From contig NW_012237371.1 in the NCBI RefSeq assembly GCF_000981445.1, positions 1 to 44,720 on the forward strand: a stretch of 44,720 bases of DNA. Direction: 5' to 3'. Of the stretch, positions 1-44,720 are shown one piece after another (within the stretch, counting starts at the first letter, position 1; the number at the start of each line of letters is the position of its first letter). Position numbers and translations under genes: made by a program. A model generated the notes under the pieces. That model worked only from the letters and a program-made list of their open reading frames with translations. It made no database searches and had not been told where the DNA came from. This stretch comes from Babesia bigemina. Taxonomy: Eukaryota.

Positions 1-260
1 GAGCGATGAAGGGTGGATAAAGGGGCGATGTAGAGTGGATAAGGAGCGATGTAGAGTGGATAAAGGGGCGATGTAGAGTGGATAAAGGGGCGATGTGGAG
101 TGGGTTAGGGAGCGATGTAGAGTGAGTAAGGGAGCGATGTAGAGTGGATAAAGGAGCGATGTAGAGTGGGTAAAGGAGCGATGTAAGGTGGGTTAAGGGG
201 CGATGAGGAGTGGATTAGGGAGCGATGCAGAGTGGGTTAAGGGGCGATGTGGAGTGGATA
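1..260 (+). repeat. 22-bp degenerate minisatellite GCGATGTAGAGTGG(G/A)T(T/A)A(A/G)GG(G/A), truncated by window edge
   Basis: Periodicity read directly; G-rich on +. Confidence 0.97.
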
Positions 261-279
261 ATAATCACCACTTAGGTCA

Positions 280-592
280 CCATGTCATCGCTGCCTAACC
301 ATGTCATCGCTGCCGTGACCAAGACATCGCTGCTGTTTCCATGTCACCGCTGCCGTGTCCATGTCATCGCTGCCGTGTCCATGTCATCGCTGCCGTAACC
401 ATGTCATCGCTGCCGTAACCATGTCATCGCTGCCGTGCCATGTCATCGCTGCCGTGTCCATGTCATCGCTGCCGTGACCATGTCATCGCTGCCGTGACCA
501 TGTCACCGCTGCTGTGACCACTTCATCGCTGCCGTGACCATCAACCTCATCGCTGCCGTGACCATCAACTGTCATCGCTGCCGTGACCATCA
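280..592 (+). repeat. 20-bp minisatellite CATGTCATCGCTGCCGT(GA/GT/AA)C
   Basis: Periodicity read directly; some 24-25-bp variant units near the 12-bp array. Confidence 0.95.
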
Positions 593-594
593 AC

Positions 595-1390
595 TTGGTC
601 AGCACTTTGGTCATGGCATTGGTCAGCACTTTGGTCAGCACGTTGGTCATGGCCTTGGTCAGCACTTTGGTCATGGCATTGGTCAGCACCTTGGTCAACA
701 CTTTGGTCATGGCATTGGTCAGGTGGTAGGTCACCACGTTGGTCACCACGTTGGTCACCACCTTGGTCATGGCATTGGTCAGCACTTTGGTCATGGCATT
801 GGTCAGCACCTTGGTCAACACTTTGGTCATGGAATTGGTCAGCACGTTGGTCAGGTGCTTGGTCACCACTTTGGTCAGCACTTTGGTCAGCACATAGGTC
901 ATCACCTTGGTCAGCACTTTGGTCAGCACTTTGGTCAGCACTTTGGTCGTGGCATTGGTCACCACCTTGGTCAGCATCTTGGTCACCACTTAGGTCAACA
1001 CTTTGGTCAGCACATTTGTCAACAACTTGGTCAGCACTTTGGTCATCACTTATGTCATGGCATTGGTCAGCACCTTGGTCAACACTTTGGTCACCACTTT
1101 GGTCAGGTGCTTGGTCAACACCTTGGTCAACACTTTGGTCAGCACTTTGGTCAGCACATTGGTCAGCACCTTGGTCAGCACATTGGTCAGCACGTTGGTC
1201 ACCGCTTTGGTCATGGCATTGGTCAGCACTTTGATCACCACGTTGGTCATGGCATTGGTCAGCACTTTGGTCAGCACCTTGGTCAGCACATTGGTCAGCA
1301 CATAGGTCATTACTTTGGTCAGCACATTGGTCAACACGTTGGTCATGGCATTGGTCAGCACTTTGGTCAGCACTTTGGTCAGCACTTTAG
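595..1390 (+). repeat. 12-bp minisatellite TTGGTCA(GCACT/CCACG/TGGCA/ACACT...) downstream of gene 1
   Basis: Near-invariant TTGGTCA every 12 bp with a variable pentamer. Confidence 0.97.
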
Positions 1391-1510
1391 TTAACTACTA
1401 CACAATCACATACAACAATTAATGAGAGATTCAAAACATTAGATTACAATACGTTGTATAGGTGAGTAGGTGATGCTAGGTGAGTGTAGACAGTAAACAC
1501 GTGAGTACGA
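1391..1510. promoter_or_regulatory. Conserved 3' flank element with core (+) TAGGTGAGTAGGTGA..GCTAGGTGAGT..ACGTGA; also before 8161, 14879, 22071, 29256, 38372
   Basis: Core shared by type A and type B genes directly after the stop codon; function unknown. Confidence 0.5.
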
Positions 1511-4500
1511 TTACGGCTGCAGGTAAAACACTTTGCCCAGTTTGTTAACACGTGCAGCAGCAAGTAGTGATTGAGCAGCTATGCGATGACTCGAGGGACT
1601 ATGTAGATGCGATTTGATGTGGAGCAGGTCCAAGCGGATGACCATGATGTGGAGGAGGTACAATAAAGAGAGGAGCCAGAGGGCGACGTTCAGCCAGATG
1701 AAGGGAGCGCGGATTTTGAAGAGGAATTCGTCGCACTTGTCGAATAGGTCAGTGAAATATTTGGAATTTAGCAACTTATTTAACTGACCGCAGAAATCGG
1801 AACACTTCTTTTTATATTGGTTATTACTCAACTTGTCAGCTTCACCAAAACTGAATCCATATCGGTACAGCGTCGGCGACACGCCCTTACAATCCACTAT
1901 TGATGAACACTGGCAATGTGGGTTCCCGCTTTTTTCGTCAGTGAGACCATGCGATCCTTTCTTGCACGTATCGCCTCTCAAACAGCTGCGGCAGCCCCAA
2001 TCGGCACAGAATATGTTGCAGAAGTCATTGTACAAATCGTTCAGCAATCGCCAGAAATCCCATGAAAGGTATATGGCCCACGATAGGTACAGGCTGCAGT
2101 TGTTGATGGCCATGTATTCATATGAATCTGCACATAACGATTGAAGGTAGGGAGCGCAGGCTACATCTGCAGCATCGTAACGACATATTTCCGAGCTGGT
2201 GAAATTGACAAGGTGCGGATGCTTGCAATCTTCATGCAAAACAGCCTGTGAACCGTACGCTTTCATCAATGTTTTGGTTAGTTCATAGGAATCGGGATAT
2301 AACTTAAGGGAGACATCACGTACGCGTGATTCAAATGACGACTGGAAACTGTATTTACTTTTCATATTCTGGGACAACTTAGAGATATTCGACCATCCCT
2401 TAACCAGCGACAACGCAAAACCGAAATGTTCTGGTAACGTCTTGGGAGGCTTGGGCTGAAGACAGCACAAGTATTTGACATAATCATTATTTAGGAAAGT
2501 TTTGAGCACGGAGCATAGGAACTTGCCCGTTTTGGTGGATCCAGTGAAGGCACGGAAACCGAAGGGCGTAAGGCATGGCTTACCACTGTTACTAGGAGAG
2601 CACGTCCTACATTGAGCTTTGCAGCCAACGGATTCCAATATATGCGGTAGGTGGCCCGGTAGGCAATCGTTTAGCAATGACATTAGAGGGGAAGTTGATT
2701 GACAATTTGGTTGGCAATTTACCTGGCACGTTGCTTGGCACGTTGGTTGACAATTTGGTTGAGTGTTTGGTTGGCTCCTTGGTTGGTCTGTTAATCCGTT
2801 GTTGCAGTGCGATTTGGTAGTCGGAATTTCTTTGCCGTACTGACACTCACTCCAACCGTGGTGTTCAGCAGCTACACTGCAGCGTTTGGATAAATACCTG
2901 AACTGCAAGAACAATCGGCGGAGTATGTCTAGCAACATGTCTAAGCATTGCGCGGGATCTGCTGGATACGACAGACCATCAGGGTTGATACGAAATTCGC
3001 ACGCATAGCGGCCTTCGGCGTTACCGTACCCGAGGATGGCAACGAGGATATCATGGGAGTTTCCGCAAATGGGTAGCAGTTTCGCGTCAAGTGCCCGTGC
3101 TGTAATGTCTGCCTCTGTCTGAACATCCAATGTCAAATTCGCGGATCCAATCTCTTTATGTGTCATCTTTTCCTTCCCCTTTGGCTTAGGGAACAATTCC
3201 ATGACGTGCAACCTTAATGAATAGAGTCCTGGATGATGACATAAACCGCAGACCCAGTAAAGCATTTCATTGATATTACGCGGTGCTTTGGGTTTGCTAA
3301 TATGGCGAAGGTGGCATACTTCGTAAAATGTTTTAAGGTGGCCGACGAGGCAACTAAGAATGTCCAAGGTGCGAAAGTCTTTCGTTTTTCCATTCGGTTT
3401 ACAGGTGGTAAGGTGCGCGTTATTAGAGCCAATAATTGTTTTTAAATATAACTCCATGATTTGCTTACCGTTCTTTCTTCTGTCCAACTCCCCGTTTTGA
3501 GTACGCTCATCGTCTGACACCGTGTATCCACGTTCGTGCAGCCATTTACCAAGGGGGTTTTTGGTTTGATTACCGTCGTTGCTTATGTCATTCAGGCGTA
3601 TATTTCTACCATGAGAATCACCACGAGGAACACATCCTTGTAACAGTTTTGACAAATCATGGAAAAGTATCTCGAGTATGCTCAAAAATATTTTTGCGCC
3701 ATTTCGGCCATCAGCCGTTAATTCTACATCTCCAGTTTCCCTATGTGTCCATCTTTTAATTGTATCACCTCCATCATACCCGTTCACATACACCCGCTCC
3801 ATCTCCTTGACAAGCCCCTCCAGCCCCGCTCTGACCGCATCGAGCAGCTCCGGGTGCCGGGGGTTGGCGAAGAGGGAGGGGGATAAATCGTTAGTGGCGT
3901 TTTTGAGGGAGGCAAGTTTTTCGGTGAAAGGATGATCGTAATTATAAATTCTAGTCTTATCAGAATTATTTTTAAGATGTTCAAGTAATTCGTCGAAGTC
4001 AGTTTTGATTTTGGTTAGCTGTTTGGCTGGGTCGGTGGGTTGGTCGGTGGGTTGGTCGGTGGGCGGGGGGTTGGTTGGAGGTTTGGTTAGCTGGTTCACT
4101 TGGTTGTGAATGTAGTCTAATATTGGTTTGACATAGTTGTTGAGAGCGGTAGATAATGCAACAAGCCGTTCTTTTATTGTCCTTTCCGGCAGAGGTTGAA
4201 GAGTTGTCGGAAACACAGCTTCTTTGACATTTGTAAGCAACGTAGGATCTTCACTTCCGTAAAATTGAGGGATGTTGTTTTGCACATCAAAAGTAGATCC
4301 TCTTACAACTTTCAACAAACCTTTAACGCTAGTCACTGAATCTAGGTCTACGATATTCTGCATAGACATACGCATTTTCTCGACGAAAGTCTGCAGTTCA
4401 TTCAATTCCCTCCTTTTCAACATGACATATCGATTGAGGGCGTCCTTTTTGATGCTGTTGATGGAGTGGGTAATTTGTTCATCCAAATGGATCCATAAGA

Positions 4501-6739
4501 ATGTCCTACACTGTTTCACAACATCTGGGAGGGTGTCTGTAAACAATAACCCTACAGCGTTTCCTAGTTTGACAACTTGATTCTTTTGCAGCAATTTAAT
4601 CTCTTCAATCATTTTTGCTAGACCTTCTGTTGAATCGTTTCTCGAAATTTGCTTTTCTTTAAACGATGTCAAAACGCTCTGCAGCCCACTTTCAATGCTG
4701 CTACCTGCCGCTTTTTCAATATTATTGCAAAGACTGCTTAGATTTTGCGTTACGTATTGGTACTGTTTGAAAGCATCACTCTTAAGGCCATCTATTGTTG
4801 CTAAAGCAGTCTTCACCTCTCTCTCAATATCACCGATCGCCGCGGGGAGGGATCCTTCTCGTTTATCCTTCTCGCCGGTCAGCGTCGCCTTATCACTCGT
4901 AATCTTATCCTGTTGTATGAAACTATTATAATTGCGAAACGTTTTTTCAGTGTTCATATCCACTTTACCCGGCGCATTACCATTATTAGTTTGTCCGATC
5001 TCCTTTTCCAGTATGCCGTCAATAGTTTTTGCAATATTGTCTCCAAGTTTAGGTGTCTGGCTAGAGCCGGAGGTGTATGGGTTGAAGGGATCGGTGGCGG
5101 CATTTGCATTTTCTCGCGCAGGTTTAAGCGCGTCGGTGAAACCATTAAGTAACTCGTCAGTTACTTCAAGCGCCTCGTCGACGTTGCCAATCAAACAATC
5201 ATCCACCAGTTCCTGGATTTGCGAACCAAACTTTTTGGCTATTGACGCGATCGCTGGCAAAATTGATTTCAAGGCGTTTTGAAGATGTGTAGCGTTGCCA
5301 GTGAGAGCAACACCGTGTCGTGCTTGCAATGCTCGATGCATCTGTTCAGCGAATTCTACAATTTGGTCTTGCCTAACTTTTGATTCAACTGTAGCAGCAA
5401 ATGTGGTAAGAAACGACTGGATGTTTGCCAATGCTGTGGACACTTCAGTCGCGTCGACTCTGAGAACACCGTTTGCATCCCGAACAAATTCGTTATATAT
5501 GTGACTACTGATGCCTACCTTCACCTGCTCTGTGTTCGCGCTAACATACCTTCCAAACCAATACTTCGCCATCTCGTCTGTGTCCAATATGCTTCCAACC
5601 CACTCCCCAATGTTTTTTCCGAACGTATCCTCGTTACCGTACTGAGTGACATACTCCATAACTTTTGCATTAATGCCCCCCAGTCCTTTTTCTTCTCCAT
5701 CCCCCTTGATTGCCTTAACTTTCTTTTGAACTTCTTCAACGTACTTACTAAAATACCCGCCAATAAGCATCTGGAGCTCAACTTTCAACCCATTTAAATT
5801 ATCTCTAAGAGCTAGATTCGTTTTAGCAACCTCCGAAAGCGCCGCGGTAACTTTTCTCTCAACACTATCCGCAGCCGCGCTACCTGCCCTCTGAAGAGCA
5901 TCCGCCTTCTGTTTCGATTGCAATGCGGCTGCTATAATTGCATTCTTCAACTTAGCACCTTTGTTGTCGTCTACCTCTTTCAATATTTTCCCTACTTGCT
6001 GTAAGGTGCCATCAATAATTTCATCGGCCTTGCTTACCCACTGCGTCAACTCCAATACGTATTGCATAAGCAATTCATTGATATGCAACACTTGATCATG
6101 AATCATTCTTATATTCGCTTTCAACGACTTCTCTAGCTTTTCAGTCTGCGTTTCCACGACATTGTGAATATTATCTTTCAACATATTAAGCTTATTACTA
6201 AGGTGCTTTACTAGTCCACGTAAATGAAATTCATCCCTTGTCGACGATTTTCTAATGGTCAAGACTTCGGTTTTAATTTTCTCAAAATCTAACCAGATTT
6301 TTGTTTGCAGAGGGCCATCAAGTGTTCTGACGGCTTCGGCAATTATTTTTAGATTTTCTTCCAAACCGTCAGCTACCGTGGACGCCATCTTGTCAATCAC
6401 AATATCCAGGGAATGAGTGTTCAACTGTTGAACTGCCACAATATTGTCACCAATTCTATCTTTCAATGCTTTTAAAGTGCCTTCACCGCCATCTTTTACA
6501 ATTTTATCAATTTTCTTTTGAAGCTCTCCATCCCACTCCCCCAGCGCATCGCTCACAGCCTCAACGGCCGCAGACAATCCGCCAGGATTGTGCATACTGT
6601 TTTTAATTTTTTTGAGTGTTTCAGTCATTTTATCTACAGGATAATACGTTTTAACTGCATCATCATCTTTCACCGCACCAAGCACACCACTCAAAAATCC
6701 CATCACCCCGTCACACAGCCTGTCCAAGTCAGAGTACAC
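1511..6739 (-). CDS. Gene 1: VESA1-like variant erythrocyte surface antigen family protein (family often auto-annotated 'extracellular matrix-binding ebh' in Babesia), tail type A; 5' leader interrupted by a stop
   Basis: 1742-aa open frame with GIVYSDLDRLCDGVMGFL box, Cys-rich C-half, TM (PFIWLNVALWLLSLLYLLHIMVI) and tail RLDLLHIKSHLHSPSSHRIAAQSLL...YLQP. The family leader ATG at 6982 is in frame but has TAA at 6857-6859; next in-frame ATG is 6703. Confidence 0.8.
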   Translation of the reverse strand: MYSDLDRLCDGVMGFLSGVLGAVKDDDAVKTYYPVDKMTETLKKIKNSMHNPGGLSAAVEAVSDALGEWDGELQKKIDKIVKDGGEGTLKALKDRIGDNIVAVQQLNTHSLDIVIDKMASTVADGLEENLKIIAEAVRTLDGPLQTKIWLDFEKIKTEVLTIRKSSTRDEFHLRGLVKHLSNKLNMLKDNIHNVVETQTEKLEKSLKANIRMIHDQVLHINELLMQYVLELTQWVSKADEIIDGTLQQVGKILKEVDDNKGAKLKNAIIAAALQSKQKADALQRAGSAAADSVERKVTAALSEVAKTNLALRDNLNGLKVELQMLIGGYFSKYVEEVQKKVKAIKGDGEEKGLGGINAKVMEYVTQYGNEDTFGKNIGEWVGSILDTDEMAKYWFGRYVSANTEQVKVGISSHIYNEFVRDANGVLRVDATEVSTALANIQSFLTTFAATVESKVRQDQIVEFAEQMHRALQARHGVALTGNATHLQNALKSILPAIASIAKKFGSQIQELVDDCLIGNVDEALEVTDELLNGFTDALKPARENANAATDPFNPYTSGSSQTPKLGDNIAKTIDGILEKEIGQTNNGNAPGKVDMNTEKTFRNYNSFIQQDKITSDKATLTGEKDKREGSLPAAIGDIEREVKTALATIDGLKSDAFKQYQYVTQNLSSLCNNIEKAAGSSIESGLQSVLTSFKEKQISRNDSTEGLAKMIEEIKLLQKNQVVKLGNAVGLLFTDTLPDVVKQCRTFLWIHLDEQITHSINSIKKDALNRYVMLKRRELNELQTFVEKMRMSMQNIVDLDSVTSVKGLLKVVRGSTFDVQNNIPQFYGSEDPTLLTNVKEAVFPTTLQPLPERTIKERLVALSTALNNYVKPILDYIHNQVNQLTKPPTNPPPTDQPTDQPTDPAKQLTKIKTDFDELLEHLKNNSDKTRIYNYDHPFTEKLASLKNATNDLSPSLFANPRHPELLDAVRAGLEGLVKEMERVYVNGYDGGDTIKRWTHRETGDVELTADGRNGAKIFLSILEILFHDLSKLLQGCVPRGDSHGRNIRLNDISNDGNQTKNPLGKWLHERGYTVSDDERTQNGELDRRKNGKQIMELYLKTIIGSNNAHLTTCKPNGKTKDFRTLDILSCLVGHLKTFYEVCHLRHISKPKAPRNINEMLYWVCGLCHHPGLYSLRLHVMELFPKPKGKEKMTHKEIGSANLTLDVQTEADITARALDAKLLPICGNSHDILVAILGYGNAEGRYACEFRINPDGLSYPADPAQCLDMLLDILRRLFLQFRYLSKRCSVAAEHHGWSECQYGKEIPTTKSHCNNGLTDQPRSQPNTQPNCQPTCQATCQVNCQPNCQSTSPLMSLLNDCLPGHLPHILESVGCKAQCRTCSPSNSGKPCLTPFGFRAFTGSTKTGKFLCSVLKTFLNNDYVKYLCCLQPKPPKTLPEHFGFALSLVKGWSNISKLSQNMKSKYSFQSSFESRVRDVSLKLYPDSYELTKTLMKAYGSQAVLHEDCKHPHLVNFTSSEICRYDAADVACAPYLQSLCADSYEYMAINNCSLYLSWAIYLSWDFWRLLNDLYNDFCNIFCADWGCRSCLRGDTCKKGSHGLTDEKSGNPHCQCSSIVDCKGVSPTLYRYGFSFGEADKLSNNQYKKKCSDFCGQLNKLLNSKYFTDLFDKCDEFLFKIRAPFIWLNVALWLLSLLYLLHIMVIRLDLLHIKSHLHSPSSHRIAAQSLLAAARVNKLGKVFYLQP

Positions 6740-6949
6740 AATACCGCTGCCATCGTAGCCTTTGGTCTCAGAGTTGAAGCCGAGGAAAGTTTCGAGCCCA
6801 GAGCAGAGGTTATTAAGGATGTTAGTAGGGTTGTTATTTGAGGTAATTTTAAGGTTTTAAATTTTGTCAAATTTCTTGTCAAGCTCACTAGGCGGCACAT
6901 GGTCAGGGCAGTGGCAAGAGGGGGACGAGGGGAAGTGAAGGGTGACAAG

Positions 6950-7008
6950 GCACAAGTTATTGCTATGGCTAATGGAGGTCATAGCGGTATTATGGCGAGG
7001 TGATTCGA
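6950..7008 (-). promoter_or_regulatory. Conserved 5' leader block TCGAATCACCTCGCCATAATACCGCT-ATGACCTC...AATAACTTG; also at ~13375-13430, 20375-20431, 27474-27529, 34446-34501, 43813-43869
   Basis: Recognisable in all six cassettes at the 22-bp array/gene boundary; function inferred from position only. Confidence 0.55.
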
Positions 7009-7660
7009 GCGATGTAGAGTGGATAAAGGGGCGATGTAGAGTGGGTTAGGGAGCGATGTGTAGTGGGTAAAGGAGCGATGTGTAGTGGGTAAAGGAGCGA
7101 TGTAGAGTGGATTAAGGAGCGATGTAGAGTGGGTAAGGTAGCGATGTAGAGTGGGTTAAGGGGCGATGTAGAGTGCGTTAAGGAGCGATGTGGAGTGGAT
7201 AAAGGGGCGATGTAGAGTGGGTAAGGGGCGATGTAGAGTGGGTTAGGGAGCGATGTAGAGTGGATAAAGGGGCGATGTAGAGTGGATAAAGGGGCGATGT
7301 AGGGTGGTCAAAGGGGCGATGTAGAGTAAATAAAGGGGCGATGTAGGATGAGTAAAGGATCGATGTAGAGTGGGTTAGGGAGCGATGTAGAGTGGGTTAA
7401 GGGGCGATGTAGAGTGGGTTAAGGGGCGATGTAGAGTGGATAAAGGGGCGATGTAGAGTGGGTTAAGGGGCGATGTAGAGTGGGTAAAGGGGCGATGTAG
7501 AGTGGATAAAGGGGCGATGTAGAGTGGATAAAGGGGCGATGTAGAGTGGATAAAGGGGCGATGTAGAGTGGGTTAGGGAGCGATGTAGAGTGGGTTAGGG
7601 AGCGATGTAGAGTGGGTTAAGGAGCGATGTAGAGTGGGTAAAGGGGCGATGTAGAGTGGA
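7008..7660 (+). repeat. 22-bp minisatellite array upstream of gene 1 (~30 units)
   Basis: Same consensus, occasional 21-bp units. Confidence 0.97.
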
Positions 7661-7768: not shown

Positions 7769-7770
7769 CG

Positions 7771-13404: not shown

Positions 13405-13431
13405 AGCGGTATTATGGCGAGGTAATTCGAG

Positions 13432-13972
13432 AAATGTAGAGTGGGTAAAGGAGCGATGTAGAGTGGATAGAGGAGCGATGTAGAGTGGATAAGGGAGCGA
13501 TGTAGAGTGGATAAGGGAGCGATGTGGAGTGGGTTAGGGAGCGATGTAGGGTGGATTAGGGAGCGATGTGGAGTGGATAAGGAGCGATGTAGAGTGGATA
13601 AAGGGGCGATGTAGAGTGGGTTAGGGAGCGATGTAGAGTGGTTTAAGGGGCGATGTGGAGTGGGTTAAGGGGCGATGTAGAGTGGATAGAGGGGCGATGT
13701 AGAGTGGATGAAGGAGCGATGTAGAGTGGGTAAAGGGGCGATGTAGAGTGGGTTAGGGAGCGATGTAGAGTGGATAAAGGAGCGATGTAGAGTGGGTTAG
13801 GGAGCGATGTAGAGTGGGTTAAGGAGCGATGTAGAGTGGACAAAGGGGCGATGTAGAGTGGGTTAAGGAGCGATGTAGAGTGGGTAAAGGGGCGATGTAG
13901 AGTGGGTTAAGGGGCGATGTAGGAAGGTAAAGGGGCGATGTAGAGTGGGTAAAGAGGTGATGTGGAGTGGAT
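13432..13972 (+). repeat. 22-bp minisatellite array upstream of gene 2 (~25 units)
   Basis: Same consensus. Confidence 0.97.
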
Positions 13973-20371: not shown

Positions 20372-20429
20372 GGCACAAGTTATTATTGTGGTCTAAAGAG
20401 GTCATAGCGGTATTATGGCGAGGTGATTC

Positions 20430-21080: not shown

Positions 21081-21094
21081 AATAATCACCACTT

Positions 21095-21617: not shown

Positions 21618-21631
21618 CAGTAAGCATCAAC

Positions 21632-34475: not shown

Positions 34476-34499
34476 AGCGATATTATGGCGAAGTAATTC

Positions 34500-35896: not shown

Positions 35897-36110
35897 CTTG
35901 GTCACCACGTTGGTCATCGCATTGGTCATGGCATTGGTCACCACTTTGGTCAGCACATAGGTCATCACCTTGGTCAACACGTTGGTCAGCACTTTGGTCA
36001 GCACTCTGGTCAGCACTCTGGTCAGCACGTTGGTCACCACCTTGGTCAGCACGTTGGTCACCACCTTGGTCACCACCTTGGTCACCACCTTGGTCACCAC
36101 CTTGGTCATC
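35897..36110 (+). repeat. 12-bp minisatellite downstream of the small TM-gene locus
   Basis: Same consensus; homogeneous TTGGTCACCACC run at its right end. Confidence 0.95.
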
Positions 36111-36112
36111 TA

Positions 36113-36447
36113 ATTGATCATCAACGCAACCATTACTGTCTATAACATTAGATGTCAGTTGCCAGTTGGGTGGTCGGTGGGATATGGATTAACAATTTCA
36201 GCACTAACAAATTGCTGAGATCAGCTGTAGAACGCGATGCAGAAGGGTATCTTGCGGACGAGGAAATCGCGGATGTTGCGGCCTACCGGAAAGCGGAAGA
36301 TGCACAGGTCGAGCAGGATGATGGCGACGATGAGGGCAACGATGACGGAGGCAATGGCCTGGGGGATGCTCACCTCACTCTTCATGTCATTGAACATCAA
36401 CGCAATTACTACTTTCTGTAACATTAGACATCAGTTGCCAGTTAGGT
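36113..36447. repeat. 59-bp dispersed direct repeat (36113-36171 and 36389-36447)
   Basis: Manual alignment gives 50/59 identity with no gaps. Confidence 0.85.
36221..36424 (-). CDS. Short TM + cytoplasmic tail module (gene fragment or terminal exon)
   Basis: 67-aa ORF with hydrophobic AIASVIVALIVAIILLDLCIF followed by RFPVGRNIRDFLVRKIPFCIAFYS. Confidence 0.45.
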   Translation of the reverse strand: MLQKVVIALMFNDMKSEVSIPQAIASVIVALIVAIILLDLCIFRFPVGRNIRDFLVRKIPFCIAFYS

Positions 36448-36455
36448 TATTCTGC

Positions 36456-36914
36456 TTAGCTGCGCAGTAGGTACCGCACCCTGTGGAACGGCCGGATGCG
36501 GAAGTAGACCATGACGCAGATGACGACGATGATGAGCGCGACGGGGGCGATGATGTAAGGGACGGGGGAGGATGATGAATTAGAGGGGCTTGCGGAATGC
36601 TGTGACATGGTAGAAGAGGTGACACGGGAAGAGGTAATCGAATGCTCTTGACCGGAGGAACGCTGTTCAAGCGCGACACGCTGCGCTTGGAGTTTGGCGG
36701 CATCGCGTACAGTTCTACGACAGAAACACATACATGTGTCTTTGTCACATTTTATATATCCTTCACGATGGCATTCATCTCTACTTTTACGAGGGAAGTA
36801 GGTATCGCGACATACAGGACATAATCCACTACAGCCTCCACAGGACACGTGACAGCATCTACAATTAGACTTTGTACATCCGGTGCCACACTTACAGTGC
36901 TCCCACCAAGTCAT
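36456..36914 (-). CDS. Small Cys-rich single-pass membrane protein (main exon); Cys-rich ectodomain, Ser/Thr stalk, TM, short basic tail
   Basis: 152-aa ORF with many Cys in the first ~65 aa, an S/T-rich linker, hydrophobic YIIAPVALIIVVICVMVYF, then RIRPFHRVRYLLRS. Confidence 0.6.
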   Translation of the reverse strand: MTWWEHCKCGTGCTKSNCRCCHVSCGGCSGLCPVCRDTYFPRKSRDECHREGYIKCDKDTCMCFCRRTVRDAAKLQAQRVALEQRSSGQEHSITSSRVTSSTMSQHSASPSNSSSSPVPYIIAPVALIIVVICVMVYFRIRPFHRVRYLLRS

Positions 36915-36930
36915 CTTGCCGCTCCGCTCC

Positions 36931-37170
36931 CAGTCCCCTCAACCTGCAAACATATCAATCACCTAGCAACGCACTCACCAACTGCAACGCGTACCACTGC
37001 CGCTACCAGCCCCCTCAACCTGCAAACATATCAATCACCTATGCAAGCACTCACCAACTGCAACACTACCACTGCCGCTACCACTCCCCTCAACCTGCGA
37101 ACATATCAATCACTCAAGCAACGCACTCACCAACGGCAACACTACCACTGCCGCTACCAGTCCCCTCATC
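36931..37170 (-). repeat. Three tandem 75-76-bp units, each a 35-36-nt GT-AG intron plus a 40-41-nt exon-like segment
   Basis: cccctca recurs at 36935, 37011, 37086, 37162. Minus-strand introns GTGAGT...TTYGCAG at 37130-37095, 37054-37020, 36978-36944. Confidence 0.85.
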
Positions 37171-37172
37171 AT
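37131..37172 (-). CDS. Putative signal-peptide exon of the small Cys-rich gene (MMRGLVAAVVVLPL)
   Basis: ATG at 37172, 14 codons (basic then hydrophobic), followed directly by a GTGAGT donor and a 36-nt intron ending TTCGCAG. Confidence 0.55.
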
Positions 37173-37679
37173 CACCTACTCTCACCCCTGTATCCCCCCA
37201 GCCCGGGCCGCCGACACCCACACTGCCCGGGATACCACAGCCGCCCTGAAGCGACGCATGTGATCAGCACCAAGAGCCACTTTATATTTCACTATTCGCA
37301 ACGCCATGTAAATTGCAGCCAACCCCGTGCGCTCAACTCCCACAGTGCAGCAGCACCGTGCTACGAGCCGCGGTATCGGCGCCATGCTGGCGGAGCGTGT
37401 CGGCTACGTGCCTAAATGTGATATTAACAATCGCAACATTGCAGCCTATAAACGCTACTTAACCAGGCCAACGCGGATTACGCCACCCTGCCAGTGACTC
37501 GCAACACACGACTTAGGTCATCCGCCGCGGCGCTCACGGCCGCCTACGTTAGCAACCAATCACCCAGCCTCACGTGACACTGACTCAATGGGCAGCGCGG
37601 ACACCTCTCACAGTCAACGCGCAACTCAAAGCACCAGGCACTCAACGTGCCACAACACCTACCAAATTACGGTTCATCC

Positions 37680-38225
37680 GCCAGCTTAGCACTTTGCCTG
37701 GTTGCTAGGTTAACACGTTGCCCGAGTGCTAGGTTAGCACTTTGCCTGAGTGCTAGCTCACCACTTTGCCTGGATGCTAGCTTAACACGTTGCCTGGGTG
37801 CTCGCTTAGCACCTTGCCTGAGTGCTAGCTTACCACATTGCCTGGGTGCTAGGTCAACACGTTGCCTGGTTGCTAGCTTAGCACTTAACCTGGGTGCTAG
37901 CTTAGCACTTTGCCTGGGTGCCAGCTTACCACTTTGCCTGGGTGATAGCCTACCACTTAGCCTGGTTGCTAGCCTACCACTTTGCCTGGTTGCCAGTTTA
38001 TCACTTTGCCTGTGTGCTAGCTTTGCACTTTGCCTGAGTGCTAGCTTTGCACTTTGCCTGGTTGCTAGGTTAGCACTTTGCCTGTGTGCTAGCTTTGCAC
38101 TTTGCCTGAGTGCTAGCTTTGCACTTTGCCTGGTTGCTAGCTCAGCACTTAGCCTTGGTGCTAGCTTAGCACTTTGCCTGGGTGCCAGCTTAGCACTTTG
38201 CCTGGGTGCTAACTTAGCACATAGC
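37680..38225 (+). repeat. 24-bp minisatellite downstream of gene 6 (type B)
   Basis: Same consensus as 21632-21925. Confidence 0.95.
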
Positions 38226-38371
38226 TTGGTCCTTCACTCATCACCTAATGCATGTGCTATTTAGTTCATAGGTTGCCGCTAGAGTAATTCGATACATTAG
38301 ACTACGTTTGTCGGTTAGGTGAGTAGGTGAGATGCTAGGTGAGTTACTGTGAATTACAAACGTGAATACAA

Positions 38372-41300
38372 TTACGGTTGTAGATACGATATCTTGGCAA
38401 GCCTTCCGACTTGCGCTGCAGCCAACAGCGATTGCGCCGTTATCTTGTGCGACGACGGTATCCTAAGGTGCGATTTGATGTGGAGCACATCCAGTCTGCC
38501 AACCATGACGCAGATGAGGTAGAAGAGGGACAGCGACCAGAGTGCGACGGTCATCCACAGGAAGGGGGCTCTGATTGTGAATATGAATTTGTCGCACTCT
38601 CTGAATAGGTCTGTGAAGCACTTGGAATTTAAAAGATTTTTTAGTTGTTGATAGAAGTTGTGGCAGTAACGTTTACCTTCTTTGTTTAACAGTACTTCAG
38701 GATTTCCATATGTGAAACCGTAGCTGTAGAATGTGCTTAGTACGCCGCGGCATTCTAGGATACCTTTACACTTGCAGTTATCGATGCCGTGCTTTCCCTT
38801 CTTACATTTGGTGCCGTTACCGCATCTGCTGCAGCCCCAGTCTTGGCAAGAAATGTTGCCGAAGGATTGGCATAGGGCTTGAAGGTAGCCATAGAATGTC
38901 CATGGTAGGTATACCGCCCATGAGAGATATAGGTTGCAATGTTTGTTGGCAAGTAGATGATAAGTATCGCTGCATAAGGCATATAAGTAGGGGGAACATT
39001 GAATGTTATCCGCATTGGCATATAAACATGACTTAGTCATCGAGAGGCTTGATAGGTCAGCACGTTCAGCCGCAGGATGCCTTTCGCCGTTACCACCATG
39101 ATTGCTATTATAGGCATTACCCAGTGCGTTGGTGAGTTGTGCGGTGTCGTTATACAGGGCAATCGATTGTTCTTTAATGCACTCTTGCACCCACGTCAGA
39201 GGCAAAGGAACTATTTTGCTATGCCAACCCTTCGTGAGGGATAACGTGAATTCAAAGTGTTCCGGCAATGTGGATGGCGGTTTGGGTATGACGCAGAGTA
39301 GCGTTGTAAGATGGGCGTTGGTAAAGAATTTGGTCAGCACGTTACATATGTCCTTCCCTGTCTTCGTGGATCCCGAGAAACCTCTGAATCCAAGCGGTGT
39401 TAAACACGGCTGCCCAGGCAGGTTTTTAGGGCACGTTGAACAGGATGATTTGCAGTCAACATTGGTAACATGATGCGGTAAATGACCAGGAAGACTGTCT
39501 TTTAGGTACGACATCAACGGAGACGTAGGTTGACAATCAACTTTGGTTTTGGAGTGATCACTGCAGTGCCAGTTGGAAGAGTCGATAGTTGTGCCGTAGC
39601 GGCACTGATACCAACCGTACTCGGACGCCATGTTACTACAACGGCTATGCAAGAATCTGAATACAGGTAGTAATCGACGAAGTAATTCGATCAACATGGT
39701 CAGACAATCCGCAGCTGATGATGGGTAAACGAAAGAAGGTGCGTTGCAGTAGTAGTCAACTGCGTACGTTGAGTACGCATCTCCGTAGCCAACAACAGTT
39801 GTGAGCACTGTGGGAGCAAGGGACGTAATATGCGTTATTGCATCATGTAAATCACTACGCTTAATTTTCTGTGGATAGGCATTCAAGGTATTTGGAGTTT
39901 GATCTTCTAGAGAGATGCCGTCTAAACTAATGCTCTCCGTTTTTGCCTCTTTTGGCTTGTCGAATAGGTCGGCGAAATCATCCGACATGAGGTCGAGATA
40001 TACAGCGTTGTATGGCAAGCCGCTAAGCCAACGGAGCATTTCATATATGGAACATGGGCGGCGAGTTGAGGAGAAAGTGGGTAGTTGACAGACACGGTAA
40101 TAGGTGGGAAGGTAATCGTATAAGTTTTGAAACGCGTTTTTAGTATCTTCACGAGAATTGTAAACATGACTGAAACCTCCGACAAGTGTACTATATATGT
40201 GCTTACCGTCGCATTCTGCCTTGTTACGCAGCTCCCCGTTCTGGTGGGAATCGTGATTAGATACAGTGTAACCGCAATTGCTTAAGAACGTGCCCATACT
40301 GCTGCCTGAATATATTCTACGGTTGTGCCATTTGGAGATGCATTGGTTCTTTAAATAGCTCAGGTCTTCATGCATCATTTCAAAGATGGACATAAACACC
40401 TTGGACAACTGAGTGCCATACGGCGTTAATTTCTGCTTTTCGACGAGCTCAGCACCAAACGTCTCGCCGTCATACACGCTCACGTACGCCTTGTCCAGCT
40501 CCTCGCACATTCTCTTTACGCCCTTTCTAAGACACTCGAGCAGGGGGTTGCTGTCCTCGGCGTAGGATGCGGGGCGGATGGTGTCGAGGAGGGCGGAAAG
40601 GGAGGAGAGGTTGTGGACGAAGGGGCGGTTGAAACGGGAGAGATCAGAGAGGAGAGTATATAGCGAATCATGAAGTTCCGTGATGTTGATAGATTCGGGC
40701 ATAATGTCGCGATTTGTTTTCAGAGTGTCCATTAAGCCTACATAGAATACGGCAACGTCAGACGAGAGTTCCTTCAAATTTGATACGTTCTCGGTACTGC
40801 GTTGCATATTATTTGCTTCATCATGGATCTTCTGCATGAATCCCTTGTAGCCTTTATTGGCATCTTTAGTGATTGCGTCAGGAAGTTCATGTAGTTCGAC
40901 GTTGATTTTTGACGAATACTTCTCGAGCTGCAACCTTAGAAATGTCACATAGCGTTTTTGGATGTTTTTTATTATGGCATTTTTTGCCACATTCGTTTTT
41001 TCGGTGGCGTGCTGGAACAGTTCTTTAAGTATTTGAGCGCTTTCGGTATATGCAAACGTTGTAATATTAGTAGCAGCTGTAACCAATGGATGCAACTGTT
41101 TGTCTTGCAGCTCACCCAGTTTTACGTGCAGGCGTGTCAATTCACCATCGGTTGCTGTGCCGATCAACGTATCCTTTAACATGTCTAGCTTCACCTTAGC
41201 GCTATCTGCATCTGCAGCTGCAGCCTTGACGATTGATTCGCAAAGACCTTTCAAGTGCTGGGTAACTGCGTCATATTTTTTGTTAATTGTTTTATTGTCT

Positions 41301-43768
41301 ACCTTTTTATCAATCACTACTGCGGTAAATGCCTCAAACGTTTTTTTTCGAACGTCTTGTATGGCTTTCGCCAAAGTACCGTTCGTGAAGTCATTTGTTA
41401 AATGGCCGCCATAACGGGTCATTATTTTGCGAACTGCACCAGCATCTAGATGCGCTTCACCAAATTTACTCTCAATTCGATTTTTAAAATTGGAAGTTTC
41501 AAGGACACGATCCAGCTGTTTGATTTCTTTTTTTATAATTTCAAATGCTGCGTCGATTTTACCCCCAAAAGATTTCACGTCCTCTGCACTCGTGTGCCTG
41601 GCGATATCTTCGATATTTTGTATAGCGCCATCCACGTTTCCCCCGATTATCGACTGTTGATTGGCATTATCAATACCCGCAAACGATTTCAATTCCTCCG
41701 CAACCTGATTGGAGGTGGACTGGAGAGAAGCAAGTGTTGTTTTAATGGCACGCTCAAGAAAATAATTGTGGTAGCCCGTTTCGGAGTTTCCATTTTTAAC
41801 GTCTTTCTCAATCTTCGCTACAATTTCTTTGACAAGCTGACTTGCATCGCCGGACGTTATTTCTTCACCCATCAGTTTCGCATTCAGCTGCACGGAGAAG
41901 CCGTGTATACAATCGTAGACAGCCTTTATGTTTTCTTGAACTTTTTCGCCATTCTTCGGTGTGACAGTAGCACCAGGAATTTTACCGCCTTTTAGTTTCG
42001 TTTCAAGCTGTTTCTTAATATGATCTGCGATGGTACCCATTGCTTCCGTAGTTAATTCTTTCTGCCCTGGATCCATTTTCGTACTAACAAGATACTTCTT
42101 ATTCTCCGTGACATACAAGGCAAGCCACCCCTTAACTCCTCCATTATTTTGCATTATCGATTTGATCCACCCGTGCACTATAGTATCAAACTTAACATCT
42201 CCCTCCTCACTGAACTTTTTAGCCCATGCCTTAATACCCTCAACTAGCCTACCGAGATACCCCTTCTTTTCACCATTGGTTCCATGACTGTAAAGTTCTT
42301 TAATAAGCGTCTTTGTCACCGCTTTGAGAAAATCCCAATTATAATCAATGCTATCTTCCTTACCATCCCTTATTAGCAATCTATCGCCAATCTTTTCTTT
42401 CAAAATCTCAAAGTGTTCCTGCTTTATTTCATCAAGGTACATTTCAATGGCTTCTTCAATTCTTCCTTTTAGTATACGTAAATCATCTTTAAGCTTATCA
42501 TCCAGATCTACTATCGCTTTTTTAAGAGCTGCAACTAGCGGCGCCAGCTTCTGTTCTGCAGCATTATAAGCCTCATACAAATCCAGAGCATTACCTTCCA
42601 GATCTTTCACAGCCTTAAGGAGCTCTCCTTTATTATTAGGTTTGGCGTTTCCACTAGCGGCATCCAATATATCAGCAACTTTTTTTGAAGCCGCCAACAC
42701 AGCTTGACGCGCTTTCTCAATCCATGATTTTAATCCAGTAACATATTGCGCTAATGTCTTATCCGCTCTTGTGATGCTTTGTTTAAGAGTGTCTATCGCA
42801 GAAGTCATTTCAACAATAAAACCTTCGACATATTCCTTTGTTCTTTCATTAATAAGTACCGCAGCCCTCTTTAACTGTTGACCAACCAAGGTAGTCACGT
42901 GCTGTAGGTCCTCTTTTTTATGTGACCAAATTTCATACATCCGCTTGGCCTGATATGCAATGAGATCGCTGACATTGTTGACTTTAATTTCTAAATCATT
43001 TTGCAGATCTTTAATGTTGTTCTTCCTCTGCCGTTCTATTCCTTGCTTGTATGCCTCTGCCATGGCGAGGCAGTGTTGAACATGACTGTCAATTTGGTCA
43101 ACATGATCATGAGTTGATAAACCATTTACGTTATCGTTAAGCGTACTCATGTCACTAATTAACGTTGTTATTACGTTTTTAACATTTTCATTACTCTCCC
43201 TCACCCTATCATTATACCCCCGCACCCCTTCGACCACCTTTTCAATCGCAGCATTAAAACCTTTTTTACCGCCGTGTTTATTGGTGTTAAGAGTGTTAAT
43301 TGCAACATCTAAAGTATCTTTATGTTGCCCTAAATGGTCTTTGATGTTGCTGAGAACACCACTCAAAAATCCCATCACCCCGTCACACAGCCTATCCAAG
43401 TCGGAGTACACTATCCCAGAGCCGTCGTAGCCTTTGGAGTCTTTGTTGAAGCCGAGGAAGGTTTCGAGGCCGGAGGAGAGGTTAGTAAGTAAATCACGTG
43501 GATTATTTTGGTTGCCTTCACTTGTTGTTTTAAGGCTCTTAAGTTTCTCTATCTGCTGAGTGATGCTCTGACAATTCGAAGCATCTTGACATTCAACGAC
43601 ATTATTATGCAATTGATTTTTACACTTTTCACACTGTTTATATTGCTTATTAAGAATGTTTTCAGCATTTTTAATAGCTTCAGTTACTTTATCACTCTCA
43701 CCAACAAATCCTCCAAGTTGACCAGCAAGGTGACCAAGGCTAATGAGCTTGGAGTCAATGTCATTCAA
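38372..43768 (-). CDS. Gene 6: VESA1-like variant surface antigen, tail type B; leader ATG out of frame
   Basis: 1798-aa frame from TTG, containing ISLGHLAGQLGGFVG (VESA1-type motif). Leader ATG 43842 reads MTSIKHYNNLLILTILSLTMLLRKP*; first in-frame ATG is 43375. Confidence 0.8.
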   Translation of the reverse strand: MNDIDSKLISLGHLAGQLGGFVGESDKVTEAIKNAENILNKQYKQCEKCKNQLHNNVVECQDASNCQSITQQIEKLKSLKTTSEGNQNNPRDLLTNLSSGLETFLGFNKDSKGYDGSGIVYSDLDRLCDGVMGFLSGVLSNIKDHLGQHKDTLDVAINTLNTNKHGGKKGFNAAIEKVVEGVRGYNDRVRESNENVKNVITTLISDMSTLNDNVNGLSTHDHVDQIDSHVQHCLAMAEAYKQGIERQRKNNIKDLQNDLEIKVNNVSDLIAYQAKRMYEIWSHKKEDLQHVTTLVGQQLKRAAVLINERTKEYVEGFIVEMTSAIDTLKQSITRADKTLAQYVTGLKSWIEKARQAVLAASKKVADILDAASGNAKPNNKGELLKAVKDLEGNALDLYEAYNAAEQKLAPLVAALKKAIVDLDDKLKDDLRILKGRIEEAIEMYLDEIKQEHFEILKEKIGDRLLIRDGKEDSIDYNWDFLKAVTKTLIKELYSHGTNGEKKGYLGRLVEGIKAWAKKFSEEGDVKFDTIVHGWIKSIMQNNGGVKGWLALYVTENKKYLVSTKMDPGQKELTTEAMGTIADHIKKQLETKLKGGKIPGATVTPKNGEKVQENIKAVYDCIHGFSVQLNAKLMGEEITSGDASQLVKEIVAKIEKDVKNGNSETGYHNYFLERAIKTTLASLQSTSNQVAEELKSFAGIDNANQQSIIGGNVDGAIQNIEDIARHTSAEDVKSFGGKIDAAFEIIKKEIKQLDRVLETSNFKNRIESKFGEAHLDAGAVRKIMTRYGGHLTNDFTNGTLAKAIQDVRKKTFEAFTAVVIDKKVDNKTINKKYDAVTQHLKGLCESIVKAAAADADSAKVKLDMLKDTLIGTATDGELTRLHVKLGELQDKQLHPLVTAATNITTFAYTESAQILKELFQHATEKTNVAKNAIIKNIQKRYVTFLRLQLEKYSSKINVELHELPDAITKDANKGYKGFMQKIHDEANNMQRSTENVSNLKELSSDVAVFYVGLMDTLKTNRDIMPESINITELHDSLYTLLSDLSRFNRPFVHNLSSLSALLDTIRPASYAEDSNPLLECLRKGVKRMCEELDKAYVSVYDGETFGAELVEKQKLTPYGTQLSKVFMSIFEMMHEDLSYLKNQCISKWHNRRIYSGSSMGTFLSNCGYTVSNHDSHQNGELRNKAECDGKHIYSTLVGGFSHVYNSREDTKNAFQNLYDYLPTYYRVCQLPTFSSTRRPCSIYEMLRWLSGLPYNAVYLDLMSDDFADLFDKPKEAKTESISLDGISLEDQTPNTLNAYPQKIKRSDLHDAITHITSLAPTVLTTVVGYGDAYSTYAVDYYCNAPSFVYPSSAADCLTMLIELLRRLLPVFRFLHSRCSNMASEYGWYQCRYGTTIDSSNWHCSDHSKTKVDCQPTSPLMSYLKDSLPGHLPHHVTNVDCKSSCSTCPKNLPGQPCLTPLGFRGFSGSTKTGKDICNVLTKFFTNAHLTTLLCVIPKPPSTLPEHFEFTLSLTKGWHSKIVPLPLTWVQECIKEQSIALYNDTAQLTNALGNAYNSNHGGNGERHPAAERADLSSLSMTKSCLYANADNIQCSPYLYALCSDTYHLLANKHCNLYLSWAVYLPWTFYGYLQALCQSFGNISCQDWGCSRCGNGTKCKKGKHGIDNCKCKGILECRGVLSTFYSYGFTYGNPEVLLNKEGKRYCHNFYQQLKNLLNSKCFTDLFRECDKFIFTIRAPFLWMTVALWSLSLFYLICVMVGRLDVLHIKSHLRIPSSHKITAQSLLAAAQVGRLAKISYLQP

Positions 43769-43918
43769 GGCTTTCTTAGTAGCATCGTCAGTGAGAGAAT
43801 GGTCAGTATCAGCAAGTTATTATAATGCTTAATGGAGGTCATAGCGTTAATATAACGAAGTAATTCGAGAGATTTGGAGTTAGGATGAACATGACAAGAC
43901 ATGGCAGTGGACAAGGTG

Positions 43919-44720
43919 AGGGCGATGTAGAGTGGGTTAAGGGGCGAGGTAGAGTGGGTTAGGAGCGATGTAGAGTGGGTTAAGGGGCGATGTAGAGTGG
44001 GTAAAGGGGCGATGTGGAGTGGATAAGGGAGCGATGTAGAGTGGGTAAAGGGGCGATGTAGAGTGGGTTAGGGAGCGATGTAGAGTGGGTTAGGTAGCGA
44101 TGTAGAGTGGGTTAGGTAGCGATGTAGAGTGGGTTAAGGGGCGATGTAGAGTGGGTAAAGGAGCGATGTAGAGTGGATAAAGGGGCGATGTAGAGTGGAT
44201 AAAGGGGCGATGTAGAGTGGGTTAAGGGGCGATGTAGAGTGGATAAAGGGGCGATGTAGAGTGGGTTAAGGGGCGATGTAGAGTGGGCAAAGGGGCGATG
44301 TAGAGTGGATGAAGGGGCGATGTAGAGTGGGTTAAGGGGCGATGAAGAGTGGATTAAGGAGCGATGTGGAGTGGACAAAGGGGCGATGTAGAGTGGGTTA
44401 AGGGGCGATGTAGAGTGGATTAAGGGGCGATGTAGAGTGGGTTAAGGGGCGATGTAGAGTGGATTAGGGAGCGATGTAGAGTGGGTAAAGGGGCGATGTA
44501 GAGTGGATAGAGGAGCGATGTAAGGTGGGTTAGGGAGCGATGTAGAGTGGATGAAGGGCCGATGTAGAGTGGGTTAAGGGGCGATGTAGAGTGGGTTAGG
44601 GAACGATGTAGAGTGGGTTAAGGGGCGATGTAGAGTGGGTTAGGGAGCGATGTAGAGTGGATAAAGGGGCGATGTAGAGTGGGTTAGGGAGCGATGTAAA
44701 GTGGATAAAGGGGCGATGTA
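43919..44720 (+). repeat. 22-bp minisatellite array upstream of gene 6, runs off window end
   Basis: Same consensus; separated from the gene 6 leader by ~50 bp of extra unique sequence. Confidence 0.97.

What the first reader, a model, noticed from the sequence alone, without database searches (positions are those of the whole stretch)
1..44720. Repeat-bracketed cassette archive of VESA-like antigen genes: candidate gene-conversion donor system
Seen: six ~5.2-5.5-kb antigen ORFs, all on the minus strand, in a recurring ordered module (22-bp array, leader, ORF, 3' element, 12/24-bp array, 20-bp array, palindrome). The leader ATG lies only ~26 nt from the repeat array (about 75 nt in gene 6), leaving no unique promoter space. 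Known: Babesia bovis varies VESA1 by segmental gene conversion into a locus of active transcription with divergent ves1alpha/beta genes, and trypanosome VSG cassettes use upstream 70-bp repeats plus conserved 3' sequence as conversion boundaries. Inference: these are silent, modular donor cassettes whose minisatellites supply homology and/or silencing signals. I do not know of a description of this three-repeat grammar in Babesia, but cannot search the literature.
Basis: partly seen in the sequence, partly recalled or inferred. Interest (0 to 1): 0.85.

Follow-up and report, generated by a model that had tools for sequence, protein, structure and literature searches.

The report
Headless antigen cassette archive in Babesia
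Six head-to-tail surface-antigen genes of a cattle blood parasite, each wrapped in the same short DNA repeats, all lack the normal start of the protein, so they are likely a stored library that is copied into start-bearing genes elsewhere to change the parasite's coat.

Summary
The module is real. The window is an array of six Babesia bigemina-type ves1b genes, each bracketed by 22-, 20- and 12/24-bp minisatellites. New here: all six lack the canonical N-terminus (MAP..LTDCPENLRE). The leader ATG is broken in 3 of 6 and evolves almost neutrally (pN/pS 0.76), while the 34-codon block behind it is constrained (0.25) and all six bodies stay open. Among B. bigemina homologs found by the C-terminus, the full start is in 17 of 17 inner-chromosome-3 models but 1 of 150 elsewhere; B. 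ovata shows the same split. Long shared tracts link the two classes, two of them starting at the conserved block. Best reading: start-less donor cassettes that feed start-bearing loci by gene conversion (0.6). Against strict silence: in B. ovata RNA-seq the two top ves1b read-catchers lie on small contigs (one start-less model, one mid-array). That fits copying into an expression locus, or expression in place. No such organisation was found in print.

The parts
1511..6703 (-). gene 1 ves1b body (internal Met to stop, 1,730 codons; one hydrophobic stretch about 60 aa from the end)
8161..13125 (-). gene 2 ves1b body (1,654 codons)
14879..19795 (-). gene 3 ves1b body (1,638 codons)
22071..27224 (-). 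gene 4 ves1b body (1,717 codons; second tail type; last 735 aa identical in P0166 on another contig)
29256..34196 (-). gene 5 ves1b body (1,646 codons)
38372..43375 (-). gene 6 ves1b body (1,667 codons; second tail type)
6704..6805 (-). conserved 34-codon block upstream of the internal Met, gene 1 (also 13126-13227, 19796-19897, 27225-27326, 34197-34298, 43376-43477); candidate 5' recombination block
   Evidence: pN/pS 0.25; tract starts
6806..7008 (-). gene 1 leader (ATG 6982, in-frame stop after 41 codons)
13228..13433 (-). gene 2 leader (ATG 13404, in frame)
19898..20431 (-). gene 3 leader (ATG 20405, out of frame) joined at about 20350 to an N-domain that lacks only the first 15 or so residues
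27327..27531 (-). gene 4 leader (ATG 27503, in frame)
34299..34501 (-). gene 5 leader (ATG 34475, in frame)
43478..43919 (-). gene 6 longer leader (ATG 43842, out of frame) joined at about 43816 to the second half of an N-domain
1..261 (.). 22-bp array, cut by the window start
7009..7659 (.). 22-bp array, 29.6 copies
13434..13970 (.). 22-bp array, 24.5 copies
20432..21082 (.). 22-bp array, 29.8 copies
27532..28570 (.). 22-bp array, 47.5 copies
34502..35680 (.). 22-bp array, 53.8 copies
43920..44720 (.). 22-bp array, cut by the window end
253..272 (-). conserved 20-nt junction between the 20- and 22-bp arrays (also starting at 7674, 13985, 21093, 28585, 35691); weak hairpin
279..590 (.). 20-bp array (also 7689-7766, 13993-14372, 21095-21616, 28604-28705, 35700-35884)
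595..1388 (.). 12-bp array after gene 1 (also 7767-8035, 14397-14751, 28722-29117, 35897-36108)
21630..21911 (.). 24-bp array after gene 4
37683..38220 (.). 24-bp array after gene 6
1389..1510 (-). conserved 3' element after the stop (also 8036-8160, 14752-14878, 21912-22070, 29118-29255, 38221-38371); two subtypes that follow the tail type
36110..37682 (-). 1.5-kb insert in the gene 6 to gene 5 spacer: two short ORFs with a hydrophobic end and a 76-bp x3 repeat; function not found

Best explanation
The six genes are 5'-truncated ves1b copies in a repeat-bracketed head-to-tail array, and they likely serve as donor cassettes whose bodies are copied by gene conversion into start-bearing ves1b loci elsewhere, which would supply the promoter and the N-terminus. 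Shown: the missing canonical start, the decayed leader, the open bodies, the split of the family by location, and long tracts shared between the two classes. Inferred: the conserved 34-codon block and the conserved 3' coding end act as the homology anchors; transfer also runs back into the arrays, leaving N-domain stubs of different length as in genes 3 and 6; the minisatellites mainly drive shuffling and duplication of cassettes between arrays and perhaps silencing. Not shown: direction of transfer, switching during infection, any function of the repeats.
For: (1) No LTDCPENL-type coding sequence in any of six frames; the only strong match to the first 45 aa of start-bearing proteins is gene 3, from residue 13 of the best query on. 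Genes 3 and 6 join the leader at different points of the N-domain. (2) The leader frame is broken in 3 of 6 while 6 of 6 bodies are open for 1,638-1,730 codons at 24-44% pairwise identity. (3) pN/pS: leader 0.76 (95% 0.45-1.53, 4 genes), block upstream of the internal Met 0.25 (0.12-0.42, 6 genes); bootstrap p 0.002. (4) C-terminal searches, blind to the N-terminus: full start in 17 of 17 inner-chromosome-3 models against 1 of 150 at chromosome ends or on unplaced contigs (p 2e-22); B. ovata 5 of 6 on the 3.70-Mb contig against 0 of 58 elsewhere. (5) BBBOND_0310230 (P0146) is identical to start-less P0068 for about 800 aa beginning at the block; P0063 and P0232 share 84-100% tracts that also begin there. 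6 of 31 start-bearing models share a 100-aa segment at 85% or more with a start-less one. (6) In the 150 aa after the block, the nearest neighbour of 15 of 23 start-bearing rows is start-less, whereas tails are class-specific: array-type in 149 of 157 start-less and 2 of 29 start-bearing models. (7) B. ovata RPKM above 0.1 in 8 of 13 start-bearing and 2 of 17 start-less genes, p 0.007. (8) Jackson 2014 (PMC4066756): only 0-3.3% of ves1b at conserved loci are orthologous between strains; 28 ves1b loci lie on chromosome 3; dominant VESA1B BBBOND_0303890 is start-bearing.
Against: The most read-rich B. ovata ves1b seen, BOVATA_049770 (3,972 RPKM), is a start-less model on a 20.8-kb contig, and BOVATA_046440 (2,105 RPKM, start class unknown) sits among near-silent array neighbours; the best start-bearing gene has 487. 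Peptides of strain PR were assigned to start-less reference loci, e.g. BBBOND_0314000 with 12 peptides at 40% of the top abundance. Both results fit copying into an expression locus, but also expression in place. On three trees the two classes cluster more than shuffled labels (15 vs 21.6, 18 vs 27.2, 11 vs 27.3 changes), and 25 of 31 start-bearing models show no recent tract from a sampled cassette, so exchange is not free. P0146 has a decayed start and no normal C-terminus, and the flanks of P0068 were not seen; the pair could be two versions of one locus in a mixed isolate. The leader is in frame in 3 of 6 genes and its interval includes values below 1. Classes outside the window rest on gene models, not DNA. 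No RNA or TSS data exist for this window.
Confidence: 0.6

Rival explanations
1. Each array unit is a self-contained gene switched on in place, one at a time, like var genes in tandem clusters. The repeat spacer is its promoter and silencer, and the protein starts at the leader ATG or the internal Met.
For: One start-less model and one mid-array model capture most B. ovata ves1b reads seen, with neighbours at or near zero. Peptides map to start-less loci. The leader is in frame in 3 of 6 genes and is used as start in 16 unplaced models. A median 5' UTR of 152 nt in B. bovis (PMC4148916) would only require a TSS inside the 22-bp array.
Against: The leader frame is broken in half the units and is nearly unconstrained, while the block upstream of the internal Met is constrained. 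Open N-domain stubs of 199 and 147 codons precede the internal Met in genes 3 and 6 with no in-frame leader start. The missing first 45 aa are conserved even in the distant ebh-type family.
Confidence: 0.2
2. The array is a by-product of unequal crossing-over at chromosome ends. Truncated copies are occasional donors of short patches, as proposed for non-LAT genes in B. bovis; start-bearing genes switch mainly in place and the repeats are neutral subtelomeric minisatellites.
For: Start-bearing genes cluster on trees and 10 of 31 share recent segments with each other. Long identical 3' halves are common among start-less models (40 pairs with 100 aa or more). Brayton 2007 already proposed truncated ves1 as functional pseudogenes (PMC2034396).
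Against: Six of six bodies are open over about 1,700 codons; tracts between classes run to hundreds of codons; in B. ovata the most read-rich bodies seen lie on small contigs rather than at start-bearing chromosomal loci.
Confidence: 0.14
3. The copies are 5'-truncated retrocopies inserted into a minisatellite region.
For: Variable 5' ends; reverse-transcriptase-like genes are annotated in B. ovata and B. caballi.
Against: No poly-A tract after the 3' element; four of six share one junction; the leader and the order of repeats are fixed.
Confidence: 0.03
4. The truncations or the module are assembly or annotation errors.
For: The contig begins and ends inside a 22-bp array; gene 4's 3' part recurs at 100% on other contigs, which may be redundancy.
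Against: The start is absent from the DNA in all six frames; the leader-to-repeat join appears in another run; B. ovata, assembled from long reads, shows the same split; the chromosome-3 end array has 1.2-1.8-kb spacers like the window's.
Confidence: 0.03

Closest known systems
BbigVes1b (VESA1b) family of Babesia bigemina, Jackson et al. 2014 (PMC4066756)
   Same: Same family: large proteins with a Cys-rich C-terminal part, one membrane stretch and the conserved tail; high turnover and recombination; 28 loci on chromosome 3.
   Different: The sections read do not mention start-less copies, repeat-bracketed arrays or a split by location. Figure 3 (gene models) could not be seen.
Babesia bovis ves1 LAT with segmental gene conversion (PMC6630957, PMC2034396, PMC12064010; passages)
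   Same: Variant erythrocyte antigen, one dominant locus, conversion from silent copies; truncated non-LAT genes were proposed as donors.
   Different: No divergent pair here. Start-less copies are the majority of models sampled, are laid out in a fixed repeat module, keep whole open bodies, and share tracts of hundreds of codons.
Pneumocystis msg-I with UCS and CRJE (PMC5676039; passages)
   Same: Subtelomeric donors that lack the start, and a conserved coding junction shared with the expression locus.
   Different: The junction here is a 102-nt block at 76-86% pairwise identity, not a fixed 33-mer; about 30 start-bearing loci, mostly interstitial; 5' ends face the assembled chromosome ends, which argues against telomere exchange.
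Trypanosoma brucei VSG arrays with 70-bp repeats (PMC7897489; passages)
   Same: Subtelomeric arrays of donors with upstream repeats and conserved 3' ends.
   Different: VSG donors keep their own start, and the repeats are shared with the expression site as the 5' boundary; here the 5' boundary seen lies in coding sequence.
Borrelia vls silent cassettes (PMC2632889, start of abstract only); Anaplasma msp2 pseudogenes (recalled)
   Same: Start-less cassettes converted into an expressed gene between conserved flanks.
   Different: Bacterial, single expression site, short cassettes; here 5-kb bodies in a eukaryote with minisatellite spacers.

Membership tests
BbigVes1b | Conserved VESA C-terminal domain with one membrane stretch | tested here: met
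   Best hydrophobic 19-mer 58-60 aa from the end in 6 of 6; 315 and 363 homologs, all listed named ones B. bigemina or B. ovata
BbigVes1b | Homology to a protein labelled BbigVes1b | tested here: met
   Gene 4 C-terminal region is 49% identical to BBBOND_0303890, which Jackson Table S1 labels BbigVes1b
BbigVes1b | Canonical N-terminus of start-bearing members | tested here: not met
   Absent in 6 of 6: these are truncated members
B. bovis-type LAT | Divergent ves1 pair around a bidirectional promoter | tested here: not met
   All six head-to-tail on one strand
B. bovis-type LAT | Segmental conversion into the active locus during infection | not testable with these tools
   Needs switched clones; only static shared tracts were seen
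Pneumocystis msg-I-type cassette system | Donors lack the protein start | tested here: met
Pneumocystis msg-I-type cassette system | Donors lack their own promoter | tested here: inconclusive
   Under 30 nt of non-repeat DNA before the leader ATG in five genes, but a TSS in the repeats is not excluded; B. ovata reads are ambiguous
Pneumocystis msg-I-type cassette system | Conserved junction element shared by donor and expression locus | tested here: inconclusive
   102-nt block in all six, 78-88 of 102 identical pairwise; two tracts start at it, others start mid-gene
Pneumocystis msg-I-type cassette system | Single expression site per genome | tested here: not met
   31 start-bearing B. bigemina models; a preferred one (P0139/P0143 type) is possible
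Trypanosome VSG-type arrays | Repeat tract upstream of each donor | tested here: met
   22-bp array before 6 of 6
Trypanosome VSG-type arrays | The same repeats at the expression site form the 5' conversion boundary | tested here: not met
   Recipients keep their own coding N-domain, and tracts begin at the block or later; DNA of recipients was not available
Trypanosome VSG-type arrays | Repeats confined to antigen cassettes genome-wide | not testable with these tools
   No genome held; metagenome scan empty; true within the window

The most novel reading that the evidence does not exclude
Babesia bigemina and B. ovata vary VESA1b with a two-tier system not described in Apicomplexa: well over a hundred headless cassettes in minisatellite-ruled arrays at chromosome ends feed whole 5-kb bodies into one preferred start-bearing expression locus (the P0139/P0143 type in B. 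bigemina, BOVATA_004360 in B. ovata), with a conserved coding block as the 5' junction. The dominant B. ovata transcript is then a chimera of the 004360 head and array bodies.
Probability: 0.3. Interest if true: 0.9.

Novelty: new variant of a known kind. Interest (0 to 1): 0.72.

Why it matters
Antigenic variation in Babesia is modelled on B. bovis, where paired genes share a promoter. B. bigemina has few such pairs (35% in PMC4066756) and its switching mechanism is open. If most ves1b copies are start-less donors, the annotated repertoire has been misread: the expressible set is about 30 loci or fewer and the rest is a library. It would be a cassette system of the Pneumocystis, Borrelia or trypanosome kind in an apicomplexan, and its main prediction can be tested with RNA-seq that already exists.

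Tried and rejected
No whole genome is held, so the repeats could not be mapped genome-wide; a metagenome scan for the junction motif found 0 loci. Pfam gave no curated hit for the six genes or for 10 homologs. The run search listed no RNA holder; this is no evidence on expression. What lies upstream of start-bearing loci and how the leader continues in other isolates remains open; only one read lay was obtained. The protein atlas could not be reached, so the two short ORFs of the insert are unassigned. The codon-position test alone was weak (block 9/9/19, p 0.067; leader against block p 0.10). The link between tail type and 12/24-bp array (2 of 2 and 4 of 4) has p 0.067. The hairpin role of the junction was not supported. 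No telomere hexamer repeats were found. Calling genes 4 and 6 'ves1ba' was dropped because no ves1a sequence was at hand. A look for the diagnostic SpeI-AvaI primers found no sequences. The index of earlier findings returned nothing. No structure or complex job was run, as none would separate the rivals.


Full report
What is in the window. Six long minus-strand ORFs fill the window; a homolog search shows the window's own protein on a contig of exactly 44,720 bp, which begins and ends inside a 22-bp array. All named homologs listed are Babesia bigemina or B. ovata proteins. Gene 4 is 49% identical over its last 571 aa to BBBOND_0303890, which Jackson's proteome table labels BbigVes1b. The bodies are only 24-44% identical to each other, and each has one hydrophobic stretch 58-60 aa from the end. 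Spacers are 1.2-1.8 kb, and 3.9 kb where a 1.5-kb insert is present. Genes 4 and 6 have a second tail type and 3' element and are the two followed by a 24-bp array.

The genes have no proper head. Start-bearing relatives begin with a MAP..KLTDCPENLRE.IDWL motif and run 130-390 aa before a conserved block. That motif is not encoded in any frame of the window; gene 3 keeps the N-domain from about residue 16, gene 6 its second half, and genes 1, 2, 4 and 5 only the last 40 or so residues before the block. The leader ATG meets a stop after 41 codons in gene 1 and is out of frame in genes 3 and 6, while all six bodies are open. Across genes 1, 2, 4 and 5 the 47 leader codons give pN/pS 0.76 (0.45-1.53). 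The 34 codons just upstream of the internal Met give 0.25 (0.12-0.42) across all six. So a stretch that half the units cannot translate from their own leader is under coding constraint. The simplest reading is that it is translated after transfer to another locus, or is kept alike by exchange with such loci (inference).

The family splits by location. I classed 277 retrieved proteins by N-terminus after dropping 18 ebh-type proteins, P0003 and the window's own three. In the two C-terminal searches (best 120 of 315 and best 120 of 363 listed), the full start is present in 17 of 17 B. bigemina models from inner chromosome 3 and in 1 of 150 from chromosome ends or unplaced contigs; three unnumbered chromosome-3 models (1 full) were left out. 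I set the 'inner' limits (above BBBOND_0300050, below 0313800) after seeing the data, and relabelled P0170 and P0146 as start-bearing by eye. Leaving out models that start downstream of the block gives 1 of 121. In B. ovata the counts are 5 of 6 on the 3.70-Mb contig and 0 of 58 elsewhere; one start-bearing model on a 48-kb contig came from the N-terminal search. The inner set matches the 28 chromosome-3 ves1b loci that Jackson called anomalous insertions. Coordinates in the proteome table show start-less genes in head-to-tail runs at the ends of chromosomes 2, 3 and 4, with 5' ends towards the assembled end and several 1.2-1.8-kb gaps, so the window is likely such an array. Gene callers do skip starts (gene 2 was called from a later Met), so classes outside the window need a DNA-level check.

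Sequence moves between the classes. P0146 (BBBOND_0310230) has its own N-domain and is then identical to start-less P0068 for about 800 aa from the block on; P0063 and P0232 share 84-100% tracts that also begin at the block; P0170 and P0126 share tracts with several cassettes in their second half. In all, 6 of 31 start-bearing models carry such a segment and 10 of 31 share one with another start-bearing gene. On FastTree trees the classes are interleaved but more clustered than shuffled labels. The last 14 residues are array-type in 149 of 157 start-less and 2 of 29 start-bearing models, so most tracts end before the tail. Cassettes also exchange long 3' halves with each other: gene 4's last 735 aa are identical in P0166, which has a different first half. 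Direction is not shown, and a mixed isolate or redundant contigs could produce some pairs.

A candidate main recipient. Of 26 start-less sequences with 60 aa or more before the block, 23 match a start-bearing N-domain, and 20 of these match P0139 or P0143 best (24 of 31 start-bearing models were in that database, and P0139 has the longest N-domain, which favours it). The two share their first 26 aa, lie on small unplaced contigs, and P0139 has an array-type tail. In B. ovata 9 of 14 such stubs with hits match P0117 or P0138 best, the two most expressed start-bearing genes, though several hits are under 30% identical and these two also have the longest N-domains. This is a lead, not a result.

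Expression. From Table S1 of PMC5660447, 8 of 13 start-bearing and 2 of 17 start-less B. ovata genes identified by accession exceed 0.1 RPKM (p 0.007; 2 of 29 with length-matched rows). But the top values are BOVATA_049770 (3,972; start-less model, silent neighbour on the same contig) and BOVATA_046440 (2,105; ves1b cluster, among near-silent array genes, start class unknown), against 487 for start-bearing BOVATA_004360, which lies among housekeeping genes. If 004360 lent only its head, its read mass equals 150-230 codons at the depth of the array genes, and its block lies at residue 310. That is compatible with a chimeric transcript and equally with a minor subpopulation expressing 004360 in place. 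The PR proteome is ambiguous in the same way. This is the main open point and the reason confidence is 0.6.

Role of the repeats. Start-bearing recipients have coding sequence upstream of the block, so the 22-bp array cannot be their 5' boundary, unlike trypanosome 70-bp repeats (PMC7897489). The repeats could mark the ends of exchanges between arrays, seed silencing as SPE2 arrays do near var genes (the motif and its binder are named; the silencing role is recalled), or form G-quadruplexes: 25 of 30 plus-strand G4-like patterns fall in 22-bp arrays. None of this was tested. In other runs the leader joins 22-bp repeats (X1, 6 contigs), and one contig joins a gene-3-type body directly to them.

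Literature seen. PMC4066756: abstract, passages, sections 21, 22 (part 1 of 2), 23, 24 and 26, supplement legends, and part 1 plus searched rows of the proteome table; figures not seen. PMC5660447: text parts 2-4 of 5 and searched rows of Tables S1 and S2; its GFF could not be read, and would give gene order and strand around 049770. PMC6630957, PMC2034396, PMC10463595, PMC9477259, PMC5676039, PMC4148916, PMC12064010, PMC7897489 and PMC3979951: passages only. Searches found no description of start-less ves1b arrays or these repeats; the library lacks most subscription papers.

Verdict. A real and ordered array of truncated ves1b genes. It works most likely as a donor archive, closest in logic to Pneumocystis msg-I but without a single expression site or a fixed junction. 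It is a new variant of a known kind of system, and one reanalysis of existing reads could settle it.

Noticed in passing
window 36110-37682: Insert with two short minus-strand ORFs ending in a hydrophobic stretch (36221-36424, 36456-36914) and a 76-bp x3 repeat (36924-37168); unassigned.
   Followed up: partly
window 43842-43919 and P0192, P0032: Gene 6's longer leader and two database models suggest that the leader is part of a longer unit that can occur in tandem.
   Followed up: partly
P0139, P0143: Two start-bearing models on small contigs share their first 26 aa and are the best match for 20 of 23 N-domain stubs: a candidate main expression locus.
   Followed up: partly
P0025, P0066, P0079, P0270 (B. 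ovata): B. ovata start-less models carry their own shared leader, unlike the B. bigemina one by eye.
   Followed up: no
BBBOND_03139xx-03140xx, 02000xx, 04000xx: End-of-chromosome ves1b arrays all have their 5' ends towards the assembled chromosome end.
   Followed up: partly
window 19756-19851: The conserved block draws far more contig depth in other runs than any other part of gene 3's 5' region; it may also be shared with ves2 genes, which Jackson found homologous to the ves1b 5' end.
   Followed up: no
BOVATA_004330-004360: The most expressed start-bearing B. ovata ves1b lies three genes from an ebh-type gene that has the same kind of N-terminus, a possible LAT-like pair, but the ebh gene has only 6.8 RPKM.
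   Followed up: no
window 22-bp arrays, + strand: Strong G skew (about 0.8) and 25 of 30 G4-like patterns lie in these arrays.
   Followed up: no
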